A stretch of DNA of 64,000 nucleotides from Kiritimatiellia bacterium (GTDB taxonomy: Bacteria > Verrucomicrobiota > Kiritimatiellia > RFP12 > UBA3636), in assembly GCA_045589455.1 (NCBI GenBank), contig JAZNPC010000060.1, forward strand, positions 1,506-65,505, read 5' to 3'. Position 1 is the stretch's first letter. Every line of letters starts with the position of its first letter. Positions 58,565 through 63,829 of this stretch are shown here, piece by piece. The notes beneath the pieces were generated by a model. That model was not told the origin of the DNA and searched no databases. It saw nothing but the letters and a program-made list of their open reading frames with translations. Position numbers and translations under genes: made by a program.

Positions 58565-58600
58565 AAAAAAAATCCCGTGGGTTCGCCTGCGGGATTTTTT
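58565..58600 (+). terminator. Bidirectional-type Rho-independent terminator of pckG
   Basis: A8-tcccg...cggga-T6. It is also the outer end of the left inverted-repeat arm. Confidence 0.8.
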
Positions 58601-58688
58601 GCTTTAATGTGGTGCTAATGTGATGCACGTGGGGGCTAAAAGTGCGAAGAAGGGACGCAGAGGTCGCAGAGCCGTGACGCCGAAAAAA

Positions 58689-58762
58689 CACTAGCGGAGT
58701 GAGGTTTGCCAAGGCTATTGCTTTATCTTTCGAAGCAATTTGGCAAATCTCATCCACTAGTG
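58689..58762. repeat. 74-nt imperfect palindrome inserted in the left arm only (MITE-like or hairpin element)
   Basis: cactagcggagtgaggtttgccaaggctattgcttt-atcttt-cgaagcaatttggcaaatctcatccactagtg. The right arm lacks it. Confidence 0.65.
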
Positions 58763-59187
58763 TGCTCGCCTAGAAGACTATTAAGATGCGAAGGCGATGC
58801 ATTATAATAAATGAAGAATGAAGAATGAAAAATGAAGAATTCAGGTAGAGTTGAGTGGTTTTTTTTCTCCATTCTCGCGTCTAATCTCGTCCGCTGCGTC
58901 CTCCGCGTAGCAGCGTCCATTTTTTCGCACTTCTAGCCATCACGTGTAACTCCGCACTCTTTATTCTTATCAATCCTATTGGGAATGGCTTGTGTAGTGA
59001 TTTTTGGAGGCAGTTTTAATGCTTGAAGATGTATGTTTATTCTTGTTTAAATAAAAAATAAGTGCTAATATTGAGTGCACGAATAAGAGGTAAATATTGC
59101 CTCTTCAGATGATTTTATTTGTCGTATGACGAAACCTAGGAAATTTCTAATACACGACATTTAGGGCAGAGATGCGCCATTCCTTGG

Positions 59188-59256
59188 CGTATTCTCTTTG
59201 TTATGTTTGTTTCAGGGTCTCCTAGGGCCTCATCATAGACATAGAAAGAGAATACG
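59188..59256. promoter_or_regulatory. Inverted repeat upstream of the 59295 gene: perfect 12-bp arms separated by 45 nt
   Basis: cgtattctcttt (59188-59199) / aaagagaatacg (59245-59256), followed by TTTTT, 38 nt before the ATG. Confidence 0.45.
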
Positions 59257-59294
59257 TTTTTATTGTAAATTAACAAAACCAAAGGAATGGAAAT

Positions 59295-60336: not shown

Positions 60337-62724
60337 ATGAGAACAAATAAAAAAATACTATTGACAATATTGTCTGGATTTATATGCTTTGGACAAGTAT
60401 TTGGGCAAACAGATGAGCAAAAAGCAGCTGCGGAACGCCAAGCATTCTTCGATGAATATTGGAATGAATTAGCATCTAGAATAAACGAGCGTATAACATA
60501 TAAGGACAGAGAAGAATATTTACAGGCTGTAAAATCGCAACTATTGCATGACAATAATGATGGAACGGTTTTATTAGATGAATTTGCATCTGAATATTTG
60601 CCTAATACTTTTGCTAAATATGAAAAGGCACGTGAAAAGTCATTAGAGATTGGACAAAATCTTAAATCAGTCTTTACAAAACCATTAGATGATAATTCAC
60701 CAGAATGGCCTAGCTATATAAAGGCGACAGAAAAGTATTGTCAAATCCTTTGTGATGAAAAACGAATCCAGAATGGAATTTCATATATTTATTTATTCCA
60801 TAAGGTTGGAGCAATGAGTGATGATATGCTCGCTGAGCTTGATAAATCAGAAAAAATGAATTTTTGGTTTGAGATTGATTTTAAGCATGATTTAAATCAA
60901 TACCAAATAAAGAAAGTGGAAGGAGTTATGGAATTTGCGCAAAAGAATATGCCAGAAACCTTTGCTCTATTAGAAGCTTTTGAAAAAGAAATAAATGAAA
61001 CAAAAGTGCAGTTTGATGGAATATATGCAGAGGCAGAGAAGCAAAATTATTTCCTAGGAAATACAACACACCCAGTCTTTGTCGCATTTGAGTTTAAATA
61101 TAGAAAAACAATAGAAAAATATAATACCATAATGCAGCAAGTAAAGAATCTTCAGGTTGAGCATTTGCTTTTAGAAGTAACAGGAGATGATTTGGCTTCA
61201 CAAGATATCAAAATCGCTAAAGAGTATAAAGCCTTTAAAGATTCCTTACCAGAATTTGTAAAAACTAATGCACATAAGGGTGTAGCCTTATATGTTGAAG
61301 AGATTATAGAAACCATGGTTAAAATACCAGGAAAAGATTATCTTATGGGTAAATATGAGGTAACTCAAGCTCAGTGGCAATTAATTATGGGTGAAAATCC
61401 ATCGTATTTCAAAGGCGATTTATCTCGTCCTGTAGAGCAAGTTTCATGGAATGACTGTCAGAAGTTTATTGAGAAGCTAAATTCTTATTCCAATGAAGCT
61501 GGGTTAACCTTCTTCCTGCCAACCAAAGAGCAATGGGAGTATGCTTGCCGAGCAGGAAGCACAGGCGATTGGGGATTACTTGCTGATGGCTCAATGGGTA
61601 CACTTGATGCTATGGGCTGGTACGAAAATAATTCAGGACGCAAGACGCATCCAGTGGGGCAAAAGAAGCCAAATGCTTGGGGCTTATACGATATGCACGG
61701 CAATGTGGGGGAGTGGACTGCCTGGGAGTACCGCGACTATAACCCCATCTACTGTGGCGGTGGCTGGGATGATAGCGCTTGGTTTTGCAATACTGGCAGC
61801 GGGAGCTACAGCAACCGTGACCGCAAGTTAGACGGGGACGACGATCTCGGCTTCCGCCTCGCTGCTCGGCGTATAGTTGAATTAGTTATAAAAGCCAAGT
61901 GTGATGGAAAGTTTATTTCTGGTGAGGATTTAGTCCAATTAGGTGGCAAGCAATATGACATAGGAGAAGCTTTTGAAGTAATTGATGGAACTAACTATGG
62001 TGATGCAGAAATTAGATGCAACATAGGAGGAAAGAATTATTCAGGGCAAGTATCTATAGGCAAAGTTACGTGGAAAGGCACAAAGGAATTTGTCGTTGAC
62101 TTAAAAGAAATAAAAGAGCAACCAAGGATAACGGTAGCGGGCATAGAAATGGTACGCATACCAGATAATGCTACCCATAAAGACTTGTACTTTGGTAAAT
62201 ATGAGGTTACTCAGGCTCAATGGCAAGCAATAATGAGTAATAATCCTTCATGTCATGAAGGCGATTCATCTCGCCCAGTGGAGTTTGTTTCATGGTATGG
62301 TTGCCAAGAGTTTATTAAGGAGCTAAATGCTCGTGCGGATGTAAAGCAAGCAGGGATCACATTTAGATTGCCAACAGAGGAAGAGTGGGAGTATGCTTGC
62401 CGAGCAGGAAGCAAAGGCAAGTATGGCTTTCTTGCAGAAGGGCGAGAAGGTTCTCTATACGAGATGGGTTGGTATTGTGATAATTCAGGAGACGAAACGC
62501 ATCCAGTAGGACAGAAGAAGCCAAATGCATGGGGGTTATACGATATGCATGGCAATGTGTGGGAGTGGACTGCCTCAGCTTATGGTTCTGGCCGTTTTAA
62601 CAAAGGTGGTAGCTACTTTAATTTTGCGTCTTACTGCGAGTCGGATGAAAGGGGCTGGGACGATCCCGATGACGGGTACTACAACCTCGGCTTCCGCCTC
62701 GCTGCCTCTAGGACAGGAAAATAA
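60337..62724 (+). CDS. 795-aa secreted protein: unique alpha-helical N-terminal region, FGE domain A (aa ~318-512), a linker domain, and FGE domain B (aa ~598-795); candidate DGR variable protein
   Basis: Signal peptide. There are two complete FGE-sulfatase domains, each with ..YEVTQAQWQ.., ..EWEYACRAG.., ..GLYDMHGNV.EWT.. and ..LGFRLAA.. Domain A resembles the 59295 gene and domain B resembles the 30313 gene. Confidence 0.85.
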   Translation: MRTNKKILLTILSGFICFGQVFGQTDEQKAAAERQAFFDEYWNELASRINERITYKDREEYLQAVKSQLLHDNNDGTVLLDEFASEYLPNTFAKYEKAREKSLEIGQNLKSVFTKPLDDNSPEWPSYIKATEKYCQILCDEKRIQNGISYIYLFHKVGAMSDDMLAELDKSEKMNFWFEIDFKHDLNQYQIKKVEGVMEFAQKNMPETFALLEAFEKEINETKVQFDGIYAEAEKQNYFLGNTTHPVFVAFEFKYRKTIEKYNTIMQQVKNLQVEHLLLEVTGDDLASQDIKIAKEYKAFKDSLPEFVKTNAHKGVALYVEEIIETMVKIPGKDYLMGKYEVTQAQWQLIMGENPSYFKGDLSRPVEQVSWNDCQKFIEKLNSYSNEAGLTFFLPTKEQWEYACRAGSTGDWGLLADGSMGTLDAMGWYENNSGRKTHPVGQKKPNAWGLYDMHGNVGEWTAWEYRDYNPIYCGGGWDDSAWFCNTGSGSYSNRDRKLDGDDDLGFRLAARRIVELVIKAKCDGKFISGEDLVQLGGKQYDIGEAFEVIDGTNYGDAEIRCNIGGKNYSGQVSIGKVTWKGTKEFVVDLKEIKEQPRITVAGIEMVRIPDNATHKDLYFGKYEVTQAQWQAIMSNNPSCHEGDSSRPVEFVSWYGCQEFIKELNARADVKQAGITFRLPTEEEWEYACRAGSKGKYGFLAEGREGSLYEMGWYCDNSGDETHPVGQKKPNAWGLYDMHGNVWEWTASAYGSGRFNKGGSYFNFASYCESDERGWDDPDDGYYNLGFRLAASRTGK

Positions 62725-62838
62725 CTGTGCTAAAAGAAAAAAGGAGGCGTAGCAAGCGGTGCAAATAAAAAGCACCGCAAGCAAGCCTCCGAAAAATGTT
62801 TTTCAACCCGTTTTAAGGGTTGAAAAACCAAATTTTTT
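62723..62838 (+). repeat. Copy C of the double-hairpin 3' module (second hairpin is the terminator at 62799-62838)
   Basis: Same core as copies A and B. tttttcaaccc (62799-62809) / gggttgaaaaa (62817-62827) plus T6. Confidence 0.85.
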
Positions 62839-62983
62839 GATGACAATATGAGCCAATTTAAAATTTTCTTTGTCCCACATATAACCTGTTTCTAATCTAA
62901 TATTAGAACAAAAATCTGTTAACACATTGAGTTAGTATTCTTAGGAAGAAAACCCAATGTGTTTTTTTGTCGCTGACGCTCTG

Positions 62984-63530
62984 GCCTTCGGCGAAACGCG
63001 GAGAAAAAAGAGGCTCGGAGACACGGAGGTATTCTGGGGTAATTGTAGTGATTGCTTGCACAATTCTCCACGTCTCCGCGTCTCCGTGTTAAGCGTAAGC
63101 AATAAGTGCAACGATTAGCATAGTCCTCCTTTTCCTCCGTGAGAATCACACTTCGTGTGTCCGTGTTAGGCGAAAGCAATGAACGAAAGTGATTTAAACG
63201 CTCTTGCTCAAGCCTTCGGCGAAACACGGAGAATAAAGAGAACGGAGACACGGAGGGGTTTGGGGGTAATTGTAATGGTTGTTAGTATAGTTCTCCCTTG
63301 TCCTCCGTTCTCCGTGTTAGGCGTAAGCAATAAGTGTAACGATTTAAACGCTAACGCTTGAGCCTTCGGCGAAACACGGAGCACACGTAGTGTGGTTTTC
63401 AAGAGAACGGAGACACGGAGGGGTGCTTGGGATTGTTAGAATAATTGCTTGCACAATTCTCCTTTGTCCACCGTAAAAATCACACTATGTGTGTCCGTGT
63501 TGAGCGAAAGCAACGAGTGCGAAAAAGGGA
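62984..63530. repeat. Array of three 150-230-nt structured palindromic units (gccttcggcgaaacRcggag ... aacggagacacggagg ... cctccgtKctccgtgttaRgcg)
   Basis: Unit starts at 62984, 63212 and 63362. Each carries long-range complementary arms, e.g. 63374-63395 (aacacggagcacacgtagtgtg) vs 63481-63501 (cacactatgtgtgtccgtgtt). A fourth, truncated copy is at 1-60. Confidence 0.75.
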
Positions 63531-63829
63531 TGCTGCGACGCGGAGGACGCAGCGGACGAGATTAGACGCGAGACAACCGATAGACAATTAGACGATAGAC
63601 GTTGAACGGACAATAAGACGATTAGACGCGAGAATGGAGAAAAAACCATTCAACCCTACCTAAATTCTTCATTCTTCATTTTTCATTCTTCATTTATTAT
63701 AATGCATCGCCTCCGCGTCCCTTCTTCGCACTTTTAGCCCCCACGTGCATCACATAGCCCCACGTGCATCACATAGCCCCACATTAAAGCAAAAAATCCC
63801 GTGGGTTAATCTTGCGGGATTTTTTTTTC
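63517..63829. repeat. Right arm of the long inverted repeat (partner of 58565-58930)
   Basis: Reverse complement of the left arm, with an extra ~58-nt cgtcta-word insertion (63560-63625) and a duplicated 19-nt unit ccacgtgcatcacatagcc. Confidence 0.8.
63791..63828 (-). terminator. Terminator hairpin of the convergent downstream gene
   Basis: A6-tcccg-tgggttaatcttg-cggga-T9. Same stem as the pckG terminator. Confidence 0.7.

What the first reader, a model, noticed from the sequence alone, without database searches (positions are those of the whole stretch)
58565..63829. 5.3-kb FGE-gene cassette bracketed by ~300-370-bp inverted repeats that begin at the terminator hairpins of the flanking convergent genes
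The left arm (58565-58930) and right arm (63517-63829) are reverse complements over the terminator stem, gctttaatgtgg..gatgcacgtgggggctaaaagtgcgaagaagggacgc, the gaagaat-word tract and ..ctccattctcgcgtctaatc..gctgcgtcctccgcg..tttttcgcac. Arm-specific indels are a 74-nt palindrome on the left only, and a ~58-nt cgtcta-word insertion plus a 19-nt duplication on the right only.

Inside are only the two candidate DGR-target genes and a palindromic-unit array. There is no recombinase or transposase.

Three options:
- an invertible segment;
- a non-autonomous TIR-bounded cassette inserted between pckG and the convergent gene;
- the null: two copies of a dispersed gene-3' repeat that are inverted merely because the flanking genes converge. 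A related piece does follow the SurA-like gene at 19541-19625.
Basis: partly seen in the sequence, partly recalled or inferred. Interest (0 to 1): 0.65.

Follow-up and report, generated by a model that had tools for sequence, protein, structure and literature searches.

The report
Repeat-capped, losable FGE gene island
The two inverted arms are real, but they are local copies of a high-copy mosaic intergenic repeat family of a ruminant-gut Kiritimatiellae lineage; they cap a strain-variable FGE-gene island that some strains lack exactly, leaving one shared terminator hairpin, and nothing shows that the island flips or moves by itself.

Summary

Most of each arm (58613-58946; 63440-63762) is a mosaic of dispersed intergenic repeat modules:
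- One 22-nt core motif has about 50 exact copies in a related Kiritimatiellae MAG and 22 in another.
- Public-metagenome contig depth rises from about 10x in the flanks to 100-5000x in the arms.
- Copies lie between genes in every orientation, not only at gene 3' ends.

Only the outer 50 nt (terminator hairpin plus GCTTTAATGTGG) is specific to this locus.

The region between the hairpins is a strain-variable island. Relatives carry one FGE gene, a 2062-aa FGE giant with an OLD nuclease, or other content. Two public metagenomes hold an exact empty site: pckG, one hairpin, then the convergent gene.

All assemblies that span the left side have pckG followed by the FGE promoter in the same orientation. 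The 64-kb window has no recombinase, transposase or reverse transcriptase.

Best reading: a dispensable island in a shared bidirectional terminator, capped by family repeats that gene-convert, and lost precisely between the hairpin copies. Trans-mobilised cassette: possible, about 15%. Invertible switch: unlikely.

The parts
56641..58539 (+). pckG (GTP-dependent PEP carboxykinase), the conserved left flank
   Evidence: Pfam PEPCK_N and PEPCK_GTP, E 1e-96 and 1e-150. The closest protein cluster is 98% identical.
58565..58600 (+). Left copy of terminator hairpin H (A-tract, TCCCGTGGG-TTCG-CCTGCGGGA, T-tract)
   Evidence: Terminator scan. Depth is single-copy in metagenome contigs. H is found only at this locus in 659 kb of related DNA. 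It is the single hairpin left in the empty-site contigs.
58601..58612 (+). GCTTTAATGTGG, the locus-specific outermost inverted module of the left arm
   Evidence: Two copies in the window (58592-58612 plus strand, 63779-63799 minus strand). In the loci it occurs only in ortholog L044. Depth is at most 2x.
58613..58663 (+). Outer cap of the mosaic: GCTA..GTGATGCACGTG words, the core GTGGGGGCTAAAAGTGCGAAGA, and GGGACGCAGAGG
   Evidence: Core motif: 5 sites in the window against 0 expected and 68 loci in GTDB genomes. Depth jumps to 190-1270x. The 5' side of the core is unique DNA in 35 of 78 copies, while the 3' side is repeated in 71 of 78.
58664..58794 (+). 131-nt palindromic module, present in the left arm only
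   Evidence: Absent from the right arm and from the same site in the strain of run X1 (joint 58663->58792). About 20 near-full copies occur at other loci. DNA fold is -27 kcal/mol, z = -5.1. Stem columns are invariant across 20 copies, with no covariation.
58795..58886 (+). CGATGCATTATAAT, the GAAGAAT 7-mer tract, and CTCCATTCTCGCGTCTAATC
   Evidence: Inverted match to 63620-63719. This has the highest contig depth in the arm, up to 4188x. It occurs as long tandem tracts elsewhere, for example L054.
58887..58946 (-). Inner cap of the left arm: the core motif in reverse (58922-58943) next to the unique FGE upstream region
   Evidence: (pair I9). It stays joined to the FGE upstream region in L044, L011, L069, L070, L071, L074 and L076.
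58947..59294 (+). Conserved FGE upstream (promoter/leader) region
   Evidence: 84-88% identical upstream of different FGE genes in L069, L071 and L044. Depth is single-copy.
59295..59975 (+). FGE-sulfatase-domain gene 1 (226 aa) with a variable 3' end
   Evidence: Pfam PF03781, E 1.6e-31. The 3' end shows patchy variability in the paralog alignment.
60337..62724 (+). FGE-domain gene 2 (795 aa, two FGE domains). Together with 59445-62193 it forms a 2749-nt duplication step
   Evidence: Pfam. Direct repeats D1-D3. Strains with a single gene: L044 and run X3 (joint 59319->62134).
62709..62838 (+). Post-FGE element (two hairpins). Also at 59971-60078, with an orphan copy at 29169-29299
   Evidence: blastn 91-92%; alignment; terminator-like hairpin 62798-62828.
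62940..63515 (.). Array of mosaic repeat units, belonging to the same genome-wide repeat system
   Evidence: Families D4-D11. Contig depth 150-1000x. The same unit-plus-arm arrangement recurs at L019, L067 and L005. A unit also lies at window 4-56.
63516..63762 (-). Right arm, family part. It holds the inner cap, the 58-nt cgtcta-word block, the 7-mer tract and the core 63723-63744. It also holds the first 7 nt (63756-63762) of the 19-nt duplication, which ends at 63774 in the next part.
   Evidence: Depth 100-5200x, dropping to single-copy at 63763. The 19-nt duplication is absent in the strain of run X3.
63763..63826 (+). Remainder of the 19-nt duplication, CCACATTAAAGC, and the right copy of hairpin H (loop TTAAT)
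   Evidence: The left hairpin of run X3 equals this sequence in the same orientation.
63863..64000 (-). 3' end of the convergent gene (45 codons visible), the conserved right flank
   Evidence: Translation. It lies on the same contig as pckG in the empty-site strains. Its function was not established: the homologue search found nothing.

Best explanation
The 5.2-kb segment is a dispensable, strain-variable island of FGE-domain (DGR-target-like) genes. It sits inside what is, in cassette-free strains, a single bidirectional terminator hairpin shared by convergent pckG and the downstream gene.

In this strain the hairpin is present twice, once at each end. Inward of each copy lies a roughly 300-nt block of a genome-wide, modular intergenic repeat system: short-word tracts, a 130-nt palindromic unit, and an outward-facing cap motif GTGRTGGCTARAAGTGCGAA. 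Because such blocks are polar, with the cap facing unique DNA, blocks that abut the two ends of an island lie inverted to each other.

The arms are not a recombinase substrate pair or transposon ends with their own enzyme. They evolve by indels at word repeats and by gene conversion between each other.

Shown:
- The arms belong to a dispersed repeat family.
- Island content varies between strains.
- An exact empty site exists.
- Orientation is constant in every spanning assembly.
- The window has no mobility genes.

Inferred:
- The empty site arose by precise deletion between the two hairpin copies. Flanking inverted arms are known to favour this, as in transposase-independent precise excision of Tn10 and Tn5 (my own knowledge, not tested here).
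- The original arrival of the island duplicated the hairpin or brought its own copy.
For: 1. Dispersal.
- The core motif hits 68 loci, with about 50 exact matches in MAG RGIG4692, 22 in RGIG990 and 5 in RGIG9845. Only about 5 hits look like chance.
- blastn of the left arm gives 194 hits, all confined to 58610-58946.
- Logan contig depth is 7-13x in the flanks and 100-5200x at 58613-58935 and 63440-63762.
- 84 of 89 core sites lie outside long ORFs and occur in every intergenic configuration.
- The cap is polar.

2. Modules are independent units.
- The palindromic module is missing at this very site in run X1.
- The 19-nt duplication is missing in run X3.
- The right-only 58-nt block sits in the LEFT arm of orthologs L044 and L011.

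3. Variable island.
- L044 and L079 carry a single 252-aa FGE gene.
- L069, L070 and L074 carry a 2062-aa BACON/FGE gene, an OLD-family nuclease and another FGE gene, after a different terminator and a different mosaic.
- Further junction alleles appear in runs X4 and X12.

4. Empty site.
- Single contigs of 2304 nt (X5) and 3264 nt (X7) join 58567 to 63791. Their flanks are more than 99% identical to the window, and there is no depth on the filled-junction sequence.

5. Filled state is old.
- The arms and left hairpin sit at the same site in L044 and L079, whose pckG DNA is about 93% identical to the window.
- The empty strains are about 99% identical in the flanks. This nesting favours secondary loss.

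6. Arms interact.
- In runs X2 and X8 the inverted identity runs through the hairpin to 21 nt beyond it (joint 58544/63848 on opposite strands).

7. No mobility genes.
- No integrase, transposase or reverse transcriptase in the 64 kb.
Against: - Whether the empty site reflects loss or gain is inferred from only a few lineages.
- The right end of the island was seen only in the window and in short Logan contigs. Orthologous MAG contigs break in the array.
- The hairpins are direct copies in the window and X3 but inverted in X2 and X8. The direct-repeat substrate for deletion is therefore not universal.
- The shared hairpin plus the 12-nt module, and the identical module order in both arms, suggest a true duplication or paired ends rather than two independent family copies.
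- Copy numbers come from fragmentary MAGs and mixed metagenomes, not from this genome.
Confidence: 0.6

Rival explanations
1. Non-autonomous TIR-bounded cassette, comparable to a mobile insertion cassette or a large MITE-like composite. A transposase or integrase encoded elsewhere recognises the arm termini. It inserted the FGE genes into the bidirectional terminator and duplicated the 35-nt hairpin as a target or att-like repeat.
For: - An exact empty site with one hairpin, against a filled site with two hairpins flanking inverted termini.
- The hairpin centres are in direct orientation in the window and X3.
- The outermost 12-nt module is shared only by the two ends.
- The cap motif behaves as a terminal module genome-wide.
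Against: - No transposase or integrase in 64 kb or next to the cassette in any relative.
- The cassette was not seen at any second site.
- A 35-nt duplication is far longer than usual transposase target duplications (my own knowledge).
- The hairpins are inverted, and the repeat runs past them, in X2 and X8.
- Only 8 plus/minus cap pairs within 700 nt were found, among 87 kept loci (80 fetched minus 5 chance hits, plus the window). Three of the 8 are this locus or its orthologs.
- The filled state is shared with a lineage about 7% diverged in pckG, while the empty strains differ by about 1%.
Confidence: 0.15
2. Pure null. The arms are two unrelated insertions or accretions of the dispersed family at two gene ends. 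Presence or absence of the island reflects whole-allele replacement by homologous recombination in the flanking genes. Neither the hairpins nor the arms play any role.
For: - The family is dispersed and polar.
- Many different alleles exist downstream of pckG, some with a different terminator.
- Arm-to-arm identity of 90-94% in the main modules is no higher than identity to copies in another species, 87-95%.
Against: - The two ends share a locus-specific hairpin plus a 12-nt module, and the same module order over about 240 nt.
- The 46-nt module next to them is 98% identical.
- In X2 and X8 the inverted identity extends 21 nt beyond the hairpin, which indicates exchange between the ends.
- The empty-site breakpoints fall exactly in the hairpin.
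Confidence: 0.2
3. Programmed invertible segment (phase or antigenic variation). A site-specific recombinase flips 58.9-63.5 kb between the arms.
For: - Long inverted repeats bracket surface-protein-like variable genes.
- There is evidence of exchange between the arms.
Against: - The window and every spanning assembly (L044, L079 plus 3 similar contigs, L069, L070, L071, L074, L076) show pckG, then the FGE upstream region, then the FGE gene on the same strand.
- No recombinase in 64 kb.
- The promoter region lies inside the segment with the genes, so flipping would not switch expression (inference).
- The arms are degenerate mosaics with large indels, unlike short exact recombinase sites.
Confidence: 0.05

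Closest known systems
BOX elements of Streptococcus pneumoniae and BIME/REP clusters of enterobacteria (modular dispersed intergenic repeats; PMC3049150, PMC3333891, PMC3184786)
   Same: - High copy number and intergenic location.
- Built from modules that occur in variable number and order, including hairpin-forming units.
- Often placed right after terminators.
- Indel-polymorphic between strains.
   Different: - The sequences are unrelated and the host phylum differs (Kiritimatiellae).
- The modules are largely tracts of 7-12-nt words.
- Blocks reach about 1 kb.
- A polar cap motif marks block ends.
- No RAYT or IS link was tested or found.
ERIC / Correia / RUP-type small palindromic elements
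   Same: The 131-nt module (58664-58794) is an imperfect palindrome of about 130 nt. It has about 20 near-full copies in roughly 0.66 Mb of related DNA, conserved stems, and presence/absence polymorphism at a fixed site.
   Different: - It is always embedded between GACGCRGAGG-type words of the larger mosaic, rather than standing alone.
- No clear target-site duplication beyond the 7-nt GCRRAGG words.
- No covariation, and no evidence of transcription.
Precise, transposase-independent excision of IR-flanked insertions (Tn10/Tn5 model) and deletion between direct repeats stimulated by inverted repeats
   Same: The geometry matches: direct repeats (the two hairpin copies) lie immediately outside long inverted repeats, and a natural allele has exactly one repeat copy and nothing between.
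   Different: - The direct repeat here is a 35-nt palindromic terminator, not a 9-bp target duplication.
- The process was not observed, only its possible product.
- The comparison rests on my own knowledge of the Tn10/Tn5 literature.
Mobile insertion cassettes (MICs) and composite MITE-flanked passenger units
   Same: Passenger genes without a transposase, bracketed by inverted terminal sequences; an empty site exists.
   Different: - No cognate IS was identified.
- No second insertion site.
- The ends are degenerate mosaics.
- The duplication is unusually long and not always direct.
DGR variable proteins with an FGE/C-type-lectin fold (e.g. Treponema denticola TvpA)
   Same: The cargo genes carry PF03781 domains. 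Their last roughly 130 nt vary in a patchy pattern between paralogs, while the flanks and a GC-rich post-stop element with hairpins are conserved.
   Different: - No template repeat or reverse transcriptase in the window or held loci.
- L044 and the P0127 representative (carried by L079) differ by one residue, outside the variable part. Ongoing diversification is therefore not shown.

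Membership tests
Dispersed mosaic intergenic repeats (BIME/BOX/ERIC-like kind) | Many copies per genome at unrelated loci | tested here: met
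   About 50 exact core matches in MAG RGIG4692 and 22 in RGIG990. The left arm gives 194 blast hits. Contig depth is 15-300 times the flank depth.
Dispersed mosaic intergenic repeats (BIME/BOX/ERIC-like kind) | Extragenic location | tested here: met
   84 of 89 core sites lie outside ORFs of at least 120 aa. Of the 5 sites inside ORFs, 3 are chance hits in unrelated taxa.
Dispersed mosaic intergenic repeats (BIME/BOX/ERIC-like kind) | Modular, variable combination of units, including palindromic units | tested here: met
   At least 5 alternative modules follow the core. The palindromic unit folds with z = -5.1. Module indels occur between arms and between strains.
REP/BIME in the strict sense | Associated RAYT (Y1 transposase) and 20-40-nt GC-rich REP hairpins | not tested
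   No complete genome was available and no RAYT search was possible. No such gene lies in the 64-kb window.
MITE / mobile insertion cassette | Terminal inverted repeats at both ends of the unit | tested here: met
   About 240 nt shared in inverted order, starting with GCTTTAATGTGG.
MITE / mobile insertion cassette | Short, fixed-length direct target-site duplication | tested here: inconclusive
   A 35-nt hairpin flanks both ends and is single in the empty site. Its centre is direct in the window and X3 but inverted, and extended, in X2 and X8.
MITE / mobile insertion cassette | Cognate transposase with matching ends in the genome; the same unit at several sites | tested here: not met
   None in the window or in 659 kb of related loci. 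The 12-nt terminus occurs only at this locus. The whole genome was not available, so absence is not proven.
Invertible (phase-variable) DNA segment | Both orientations present in a population | tested here: not met
   There is one orientation in the window and in all spanning assemblies: L044, L079 (plus 3 similar), L069, L070, L071, L074, L076. Only assemblies could be examined, because no raw-read runs were on hand.
Invertible (phase-variable) DNA segment | Nearby site-specific recombinase | tested here: not met
   Pfam scans of the window's ORFs found none.
Diversity-generating retroelement target locus | A variable repeat at the 3' end of the target gene that differs from a template repeat at adenines, plus a reverse transcriptase | tested here: inconclusive
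   VR-like patchy variation is present. No TR copy and no RT-like ORF lies in the window or held loci. The rest of the genome was not seen.

The most novel reading that the evidence does not exclude
The arm-bounded unit is a trans-mobilised cassette that targets bidirectional terminator hairpins, duplicating the hairpin on entry and restoring it on exit. It ferries DGR-target-type FGE genes between strains, and the genome-wide cap motif GTGRTGGCTARAAGTGCGAA is the recognition end of an as yet unseen recombinase.
Probability: 0.12. Interest if true: 0.7.

Novelty: new member of a known kind. Interest (0 to 1): 0.38.

Why it matters
This case shows how a striking pair of 300-nt inverted repeats around a gene cassette can arise without a dedicated inversion or transposition system. 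It also documents an undescribed, very abundant mosaic repeat system in ruminant-gut Kiritimatiellae that fills intergenic regions up to about 1.9 kb (median about 0.8 kb).

The pckG-downstream site is a hotspot where FGE-fold surface-protein genes are swapped, duplicated or lost between close strains. That matters for strain-level variation in gut communities. It also matters for MAG assembly, because contigs break in these repeats.

The natural empty site makes loss or gain of the island directly testable.

Tried and rejected
- Exact-protein look-ups of the window's own pckG and FGE proteins found no record, so the source contig beyond 64000 could not be read.
- A homologue search with the 45-aa fragment of the right-flank gene found nothing, so right-flank contigs of relatives could not be fetched.
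- The metagenome-contig scan for the hairpin junction gave one chance hit, inside an unrelated coding-looking sequence that I did not annotate. The JGI set seems to lack this lineage.
- More distant pckG relatives (82% and 78% aa) are not syntenic, so they give no empty-site information.
- Rfam: no family anywhere in the window.
- Covariation in the palindromic module: none, because the stems are invariant. An RNA role is neither supported nor excluded.
- Classical MITE reading of the family: only 8 plus/minus cap pairs within 700 nt, of which 3 are this locus or its orthologs. Rejected as a general description.
- The '3'-end-specific repeat' reading is rejected, because copies also lie between tandem and divergent genes.
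- Read-level inversion test: every matching public run is kept only as short-read contigs that break inside the arms. The best share of words was 0.39 and there were no raw or long reads.
- The swap of the 58-nt block between arms in L044 relative to the window was considered as a trace of double inversion. I rejected it as evidence, because the block is flanked by a 14-nt direct repeat (TCTCGCGTCTAATC) that allows recurrent deletion.
- Search for a DGR template repeat or reverse transcriptase: none found.

Full report
**1. Observation**

The inverted arms are real. The repeat finder reports five collinear inverted pairs between 58565-58946 and 63516-63829, of 26-83 nt and 77-100% complementarity.

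A gapped alignment of the left arm against the reverse complement of the right arm shows about 240 shared positions and three arm-specific blocks:
- a left-only block of 131 nt (58664-58794) that contains a roughly 75-nt hairpin;
- a right-only 19-nt duplication;
- a right-only 58-nt block of cgtcta-type words.

Both arms begin at terminator-like hairpins, 58567-58600 and 63791-63825. The left hairpin follows the stop of pckG (56641-58539; Pfam PEPCK_N/PEPCK_GTP). The right hairpin follows the stop (63863-63865) of a minus-strand gene, of which 45 codons are visible.

Between the arms lie two FGE-sulfatase-domain genes (59295-59975 and 60337-62724), a repeated post-gene element, and a repeat array at 62940-63515.

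The rest of the window is chromosomal core. It includes a ribosomal-protein operon, a DpnII-type restriction-modification system, murC-murB, acetyl-CoA carboxylase genes and clpB. No integrase, transposase or reverse transcriptase was found.

**2. The arms are made of a dispersed, modular repeat system**

A 22-nt motif from the arms, GTGNNGGCTARAAGTGCGARRA, occurs four times exactly in the window, against 0 expected from shuffles. The sites are both arms, the inner end of the left arm in reverse, and 19568-19589; a fifth site matches with two mismatches.

A scan of one genome per GTDB species found 68 loci:
- 37 loci, about 50 matches, in Kiritimatiellae MAG RGIG4692 (roe deer rectum);
- 18 loci, 22 matches, in RGIG990 (cattle);
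- 5 loci in RGIG9845 (yak);
- 3 loci in a related 'Verrucomicrobia' MAG;
- about 5 chance hits in unrelated taxa.

blastn of the left arm against these loci gives 194 hits, all confined to 58610-58946.

Public ruminant-gut metagenomes hold close relatives of the window. The best run holds 39% of the sampled 31-nt words. Logan contig depth in those runs is 7-13x over pckG and the right flank, but 100-5200x over 58613-58935 and 63440-63762. The edges are sharp, at 58613 and 63762.

The family is extragenic: 84 of 89 motif sites lie outside long ORFs. It is not tied to gene 3' ends, since I counted 24 tandem, 9 convergent and 7 divergent settings. The host intergenic regions are long, with a median near 0.8 kb.

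Downstream of the motif, at least five alternative modules follow. Most are tracts of 7-12-nt words such as GACGCAGAG, GAAGAAT, CGTCTAAT, CAGGATT and ACGAAACAC.

The motif is polar. Its 5' side is unique DNA in 35 of 78 copies, and its 3' side is repeated in 71 of 78. It therefore acts as an outward-facing cap of mosaic blocks. Blocks that abut the two ends of any unique segment will tend to be inverted relative to each other.

Only 8 plus/minus cap pairs within 700 nt were found, and 3 of them are this locus or its orthologs. The family is therefore not a classical MITE with paired ends.

**3. Modules behave as separate indel units**

- The 131-nt palindromic module has about 20 near-full copies elsewhere, always between GACGCRGAGG-type words.
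- It folds well as DNA (-27 kcal/mol, z = -5.1).
- Its stems are invariant and its loops variable, with no covariation.
- It is absent from the same position of the left arm in the strain of run X1 (joint 58663->58792).
- The 19-nt duplication is missing in run X3.
- The 'right-only' 58-nt block is in the LEFT arm of orthologs L044 and L011. It is bracketed by a 14-nt direct repeat, so recurrent deletion is easy.

**4. What is specific to this locus**

The hairpin and the next 12 nt (GCTTTAATGTGG) are at single to double depth. In 659 kb of related DNA they occur only here and in the orthologous left arm of L044 and L079.

The asymmetric centre of the hairpin is in the same, direct orientation at both ends of the window: TCCCGTGGGTT...TGCGGGA on the plus strand. 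Both hairpins are called as plus-strand terminators. In run X3 the left hairpin is identical to the window's right hairpin in that orientation. Both loop alleles, TTCGCC and TTAATCT, occur at either end in different samples.

In runs X2 and X8 the right end instead carries the reverse complement of 58544-58594. The inverted identity there runs through the hairpin and 21 nt beyond it. I read this as gene conversion between the arms.

**5. The segment between the hairpins is a variable island**

- Ortholog L044 (RGIG4692; pckG DNA about 93% identical) and L079 have pckG, the same hairpin, an arm, the same FGE upstream region, a single 252-aa FGE gene, the array, and the start of a right arm.
- The window differs by a 2749-nt duplication step. 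Run X3 has the single-gene form (joint 59319->62134).
- Strains whose pckG protein is 98% identical (L069, L070, L074) have a different terminator and a different 0.8-kb mosaic. They share the inner cap and the FGE upstream region (58873-59306). Then follow a 2062-aa BACON/Flg_new/FGE protein, an OLD-family nuclease and another FGE gene. L071 has yet another gene.
- Further junction alleles appear in runs X4 and X12.
- In RGIG990 the FGE gene is cut off after its signal peptide by mosaic repeats.

**6. Empty site**

In runs X5 and X7, single contigs of 2304 and 3264 nt (depth 11.3 and 9.8) run from pckG through ONE hairpin straight into the convergent gene. The joint is 58567->63791, skipping 5223 nt. 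The flanks are 99% or more identical to the window.

The filled-junction sequence (58589-58640 and 63740-63790) has zero depth in X5. This argues against a graph artefact at a repeated hairpin. Run X3, from the same study, is filled only.

The empty strains are about 1% diverged from the window in the flanks. The filled state is shared with a lineage about 7% diverged in pckG. I therefore infer that the empty allele is a secondary, precise loss between the two hairpin copies. This is an inference from few lineages.

The geometry, direct repeats just outside long inverted repeats, is the one known to favour transposase-independent precise excision of Tn10 and Tn5. That comparison rests on my own knowledge and was not tested.

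**7. Orientation**

The window, L044, L079 (plus three similar contigs), L069, L070, L071, L074 and L076 all read pckG, then the FGE upstream region, then the FGE gene on the same strand. No assembly shows the flipped state.

Inversion by crossover inside the arms would leave the inner junctions unchanged. Only molecules that span a whole arm can report it. All matching public runs are kept as short-read contigs that break in the arms, and no raw or long reads were on hand. Low-frequency inversion is therefore not excluded.

**8. Cargo**

The last roughly 130 nt of the FGE domains vary in patches between three paralogs and the ortholog, while the flanks and a GC-rich stretch before the stop are conserved. 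After the stop comes a conserved element with two hairpins, at 59971-60078 and 62709-62838.

This looks like a DGR variable region. However, no template repeat or reverse transcriptase lies in the window or the held loci. L044 and the P0127 representative, which L079 carries, differ by one residue outside that part.

**9. Verdict**

The arms are genuine but ordinary in kind. They are two polar blocks of a high-copy mosaic repeat family, which I did not find described, capping a dispensable, strain-variable gene island.

The island sits in a shared bidirectional terminator and is bounded by two copies of that terminator.

- A trans-mobilised cassette remains possible (about 0.15).
- A pure-coincidence null gets about 0.2.
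- A programmed invertible switch gets about 0.05.

The closest known systems are pneumococcal BOX and enterobacterial BIME/ERIC-type repeats (PMC3049150, PMC3333891, PMC3184786) for the arms. For the loss, the closest is IR-stimulated precise excision.

Noticed in passing
window 59830-59975, 62580-62724, 30900-31050; L044 633-780: The 3' ends of three FGE paralogs and the ortholog vary in patches typical of DGR variable regions, while the flanks are about 95% conserved. No template repeat or reverse transcriptase lies in the window or the held loci.
   Followed up: partly
window 29169-29299: An orphan copy (92%) of the two-hairpin element that normally follows FGE stop codons sits right after a UDP-glucose dehydrogenase gene (27721-29088). 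It lies 1 kb upstream of the third FGE paralog (30313-31050), which itself lacks the element.
   Followed up: partly
window 29300-30160: Another 0.9-kb mosaic repeat block lies upstream of the third FGE gene. It is bounded by roughly 180-nt direct repeats (about 29350-29530 and 29975-30157) and contains cgtcta-, cacgtct- and gacgcagag-type word tracts, with copies in many MAG loci.
   Followed up: partly
window 59445-62193: A 2749-nt duplication step created the second, two-domain FGE gene. L044, L079 and the strain in run X3 carry the unduplicated single-gene form (joint 59319->62134).
   Followed up: yes
L069 13130-21899 (also L070, L074): In strains with a 98%-identical pckG, the same site holds a 2062-aa BACON/Flg_new/FGE protein, an OLD-family (AAA_15/AAA_21/TOPRIM) nuclease gene and a further FGE gene, after a different pckG terminator.
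   Followed up: partly
L011 1515-1585 (RGIG990): The conserved FGE upstream region and the first roughly 23 codons (signal peptide) are followed directly by mosaic repeat sequence. The FGE gene there is truncated by the repeat system.
   Followed up: no
window 58544-58594 versus 63797-63847, in runs X2 and X8: In two metagenomes the right end carries the reverse complement of the left hairpin plus 21 nt of the pckG-side flank. In those strains the inverted repeat therefore reaches to within 5 nt of the pckG stop.
   Followed up: partly
window 58556-58600, in runs X4 and X12: At least two further junction alleles lie downstream of pckG. In X12 the hairpin is followed by ATTTACTGTTGTGG... . In X4 the sequence diverges at 58556 into ATCATAAATGTAAAATGG... 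. This indicates more island variants than those characterised.
   Followed up: no
window 14268-14486 and 14846-18102: A repeat piece shared with MAG loci L003 and L034 (87-90%) lies just after the ribosomal-protein operon. It is followed by a DpnII-type restriction-modification cluster: a D12 adenine methylase, a DpnII endonuclease and a second N6/N4 methylase.
   Followed up: no
window 25372-27633: A single 753-aa ORF combines Mur-ligase (MurC-like) domains with the MurB FAD-binding and C-terminal domains, which suggests a murC-murB fusion.
   Followed up: no
window 1-56: The window starts inside another copy of the array unit (GCCTTCGGCGAAACGCGGAGAAAA), 84-89% identical to units at 62971-63007 and 63333-63381.
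   Followed up: no
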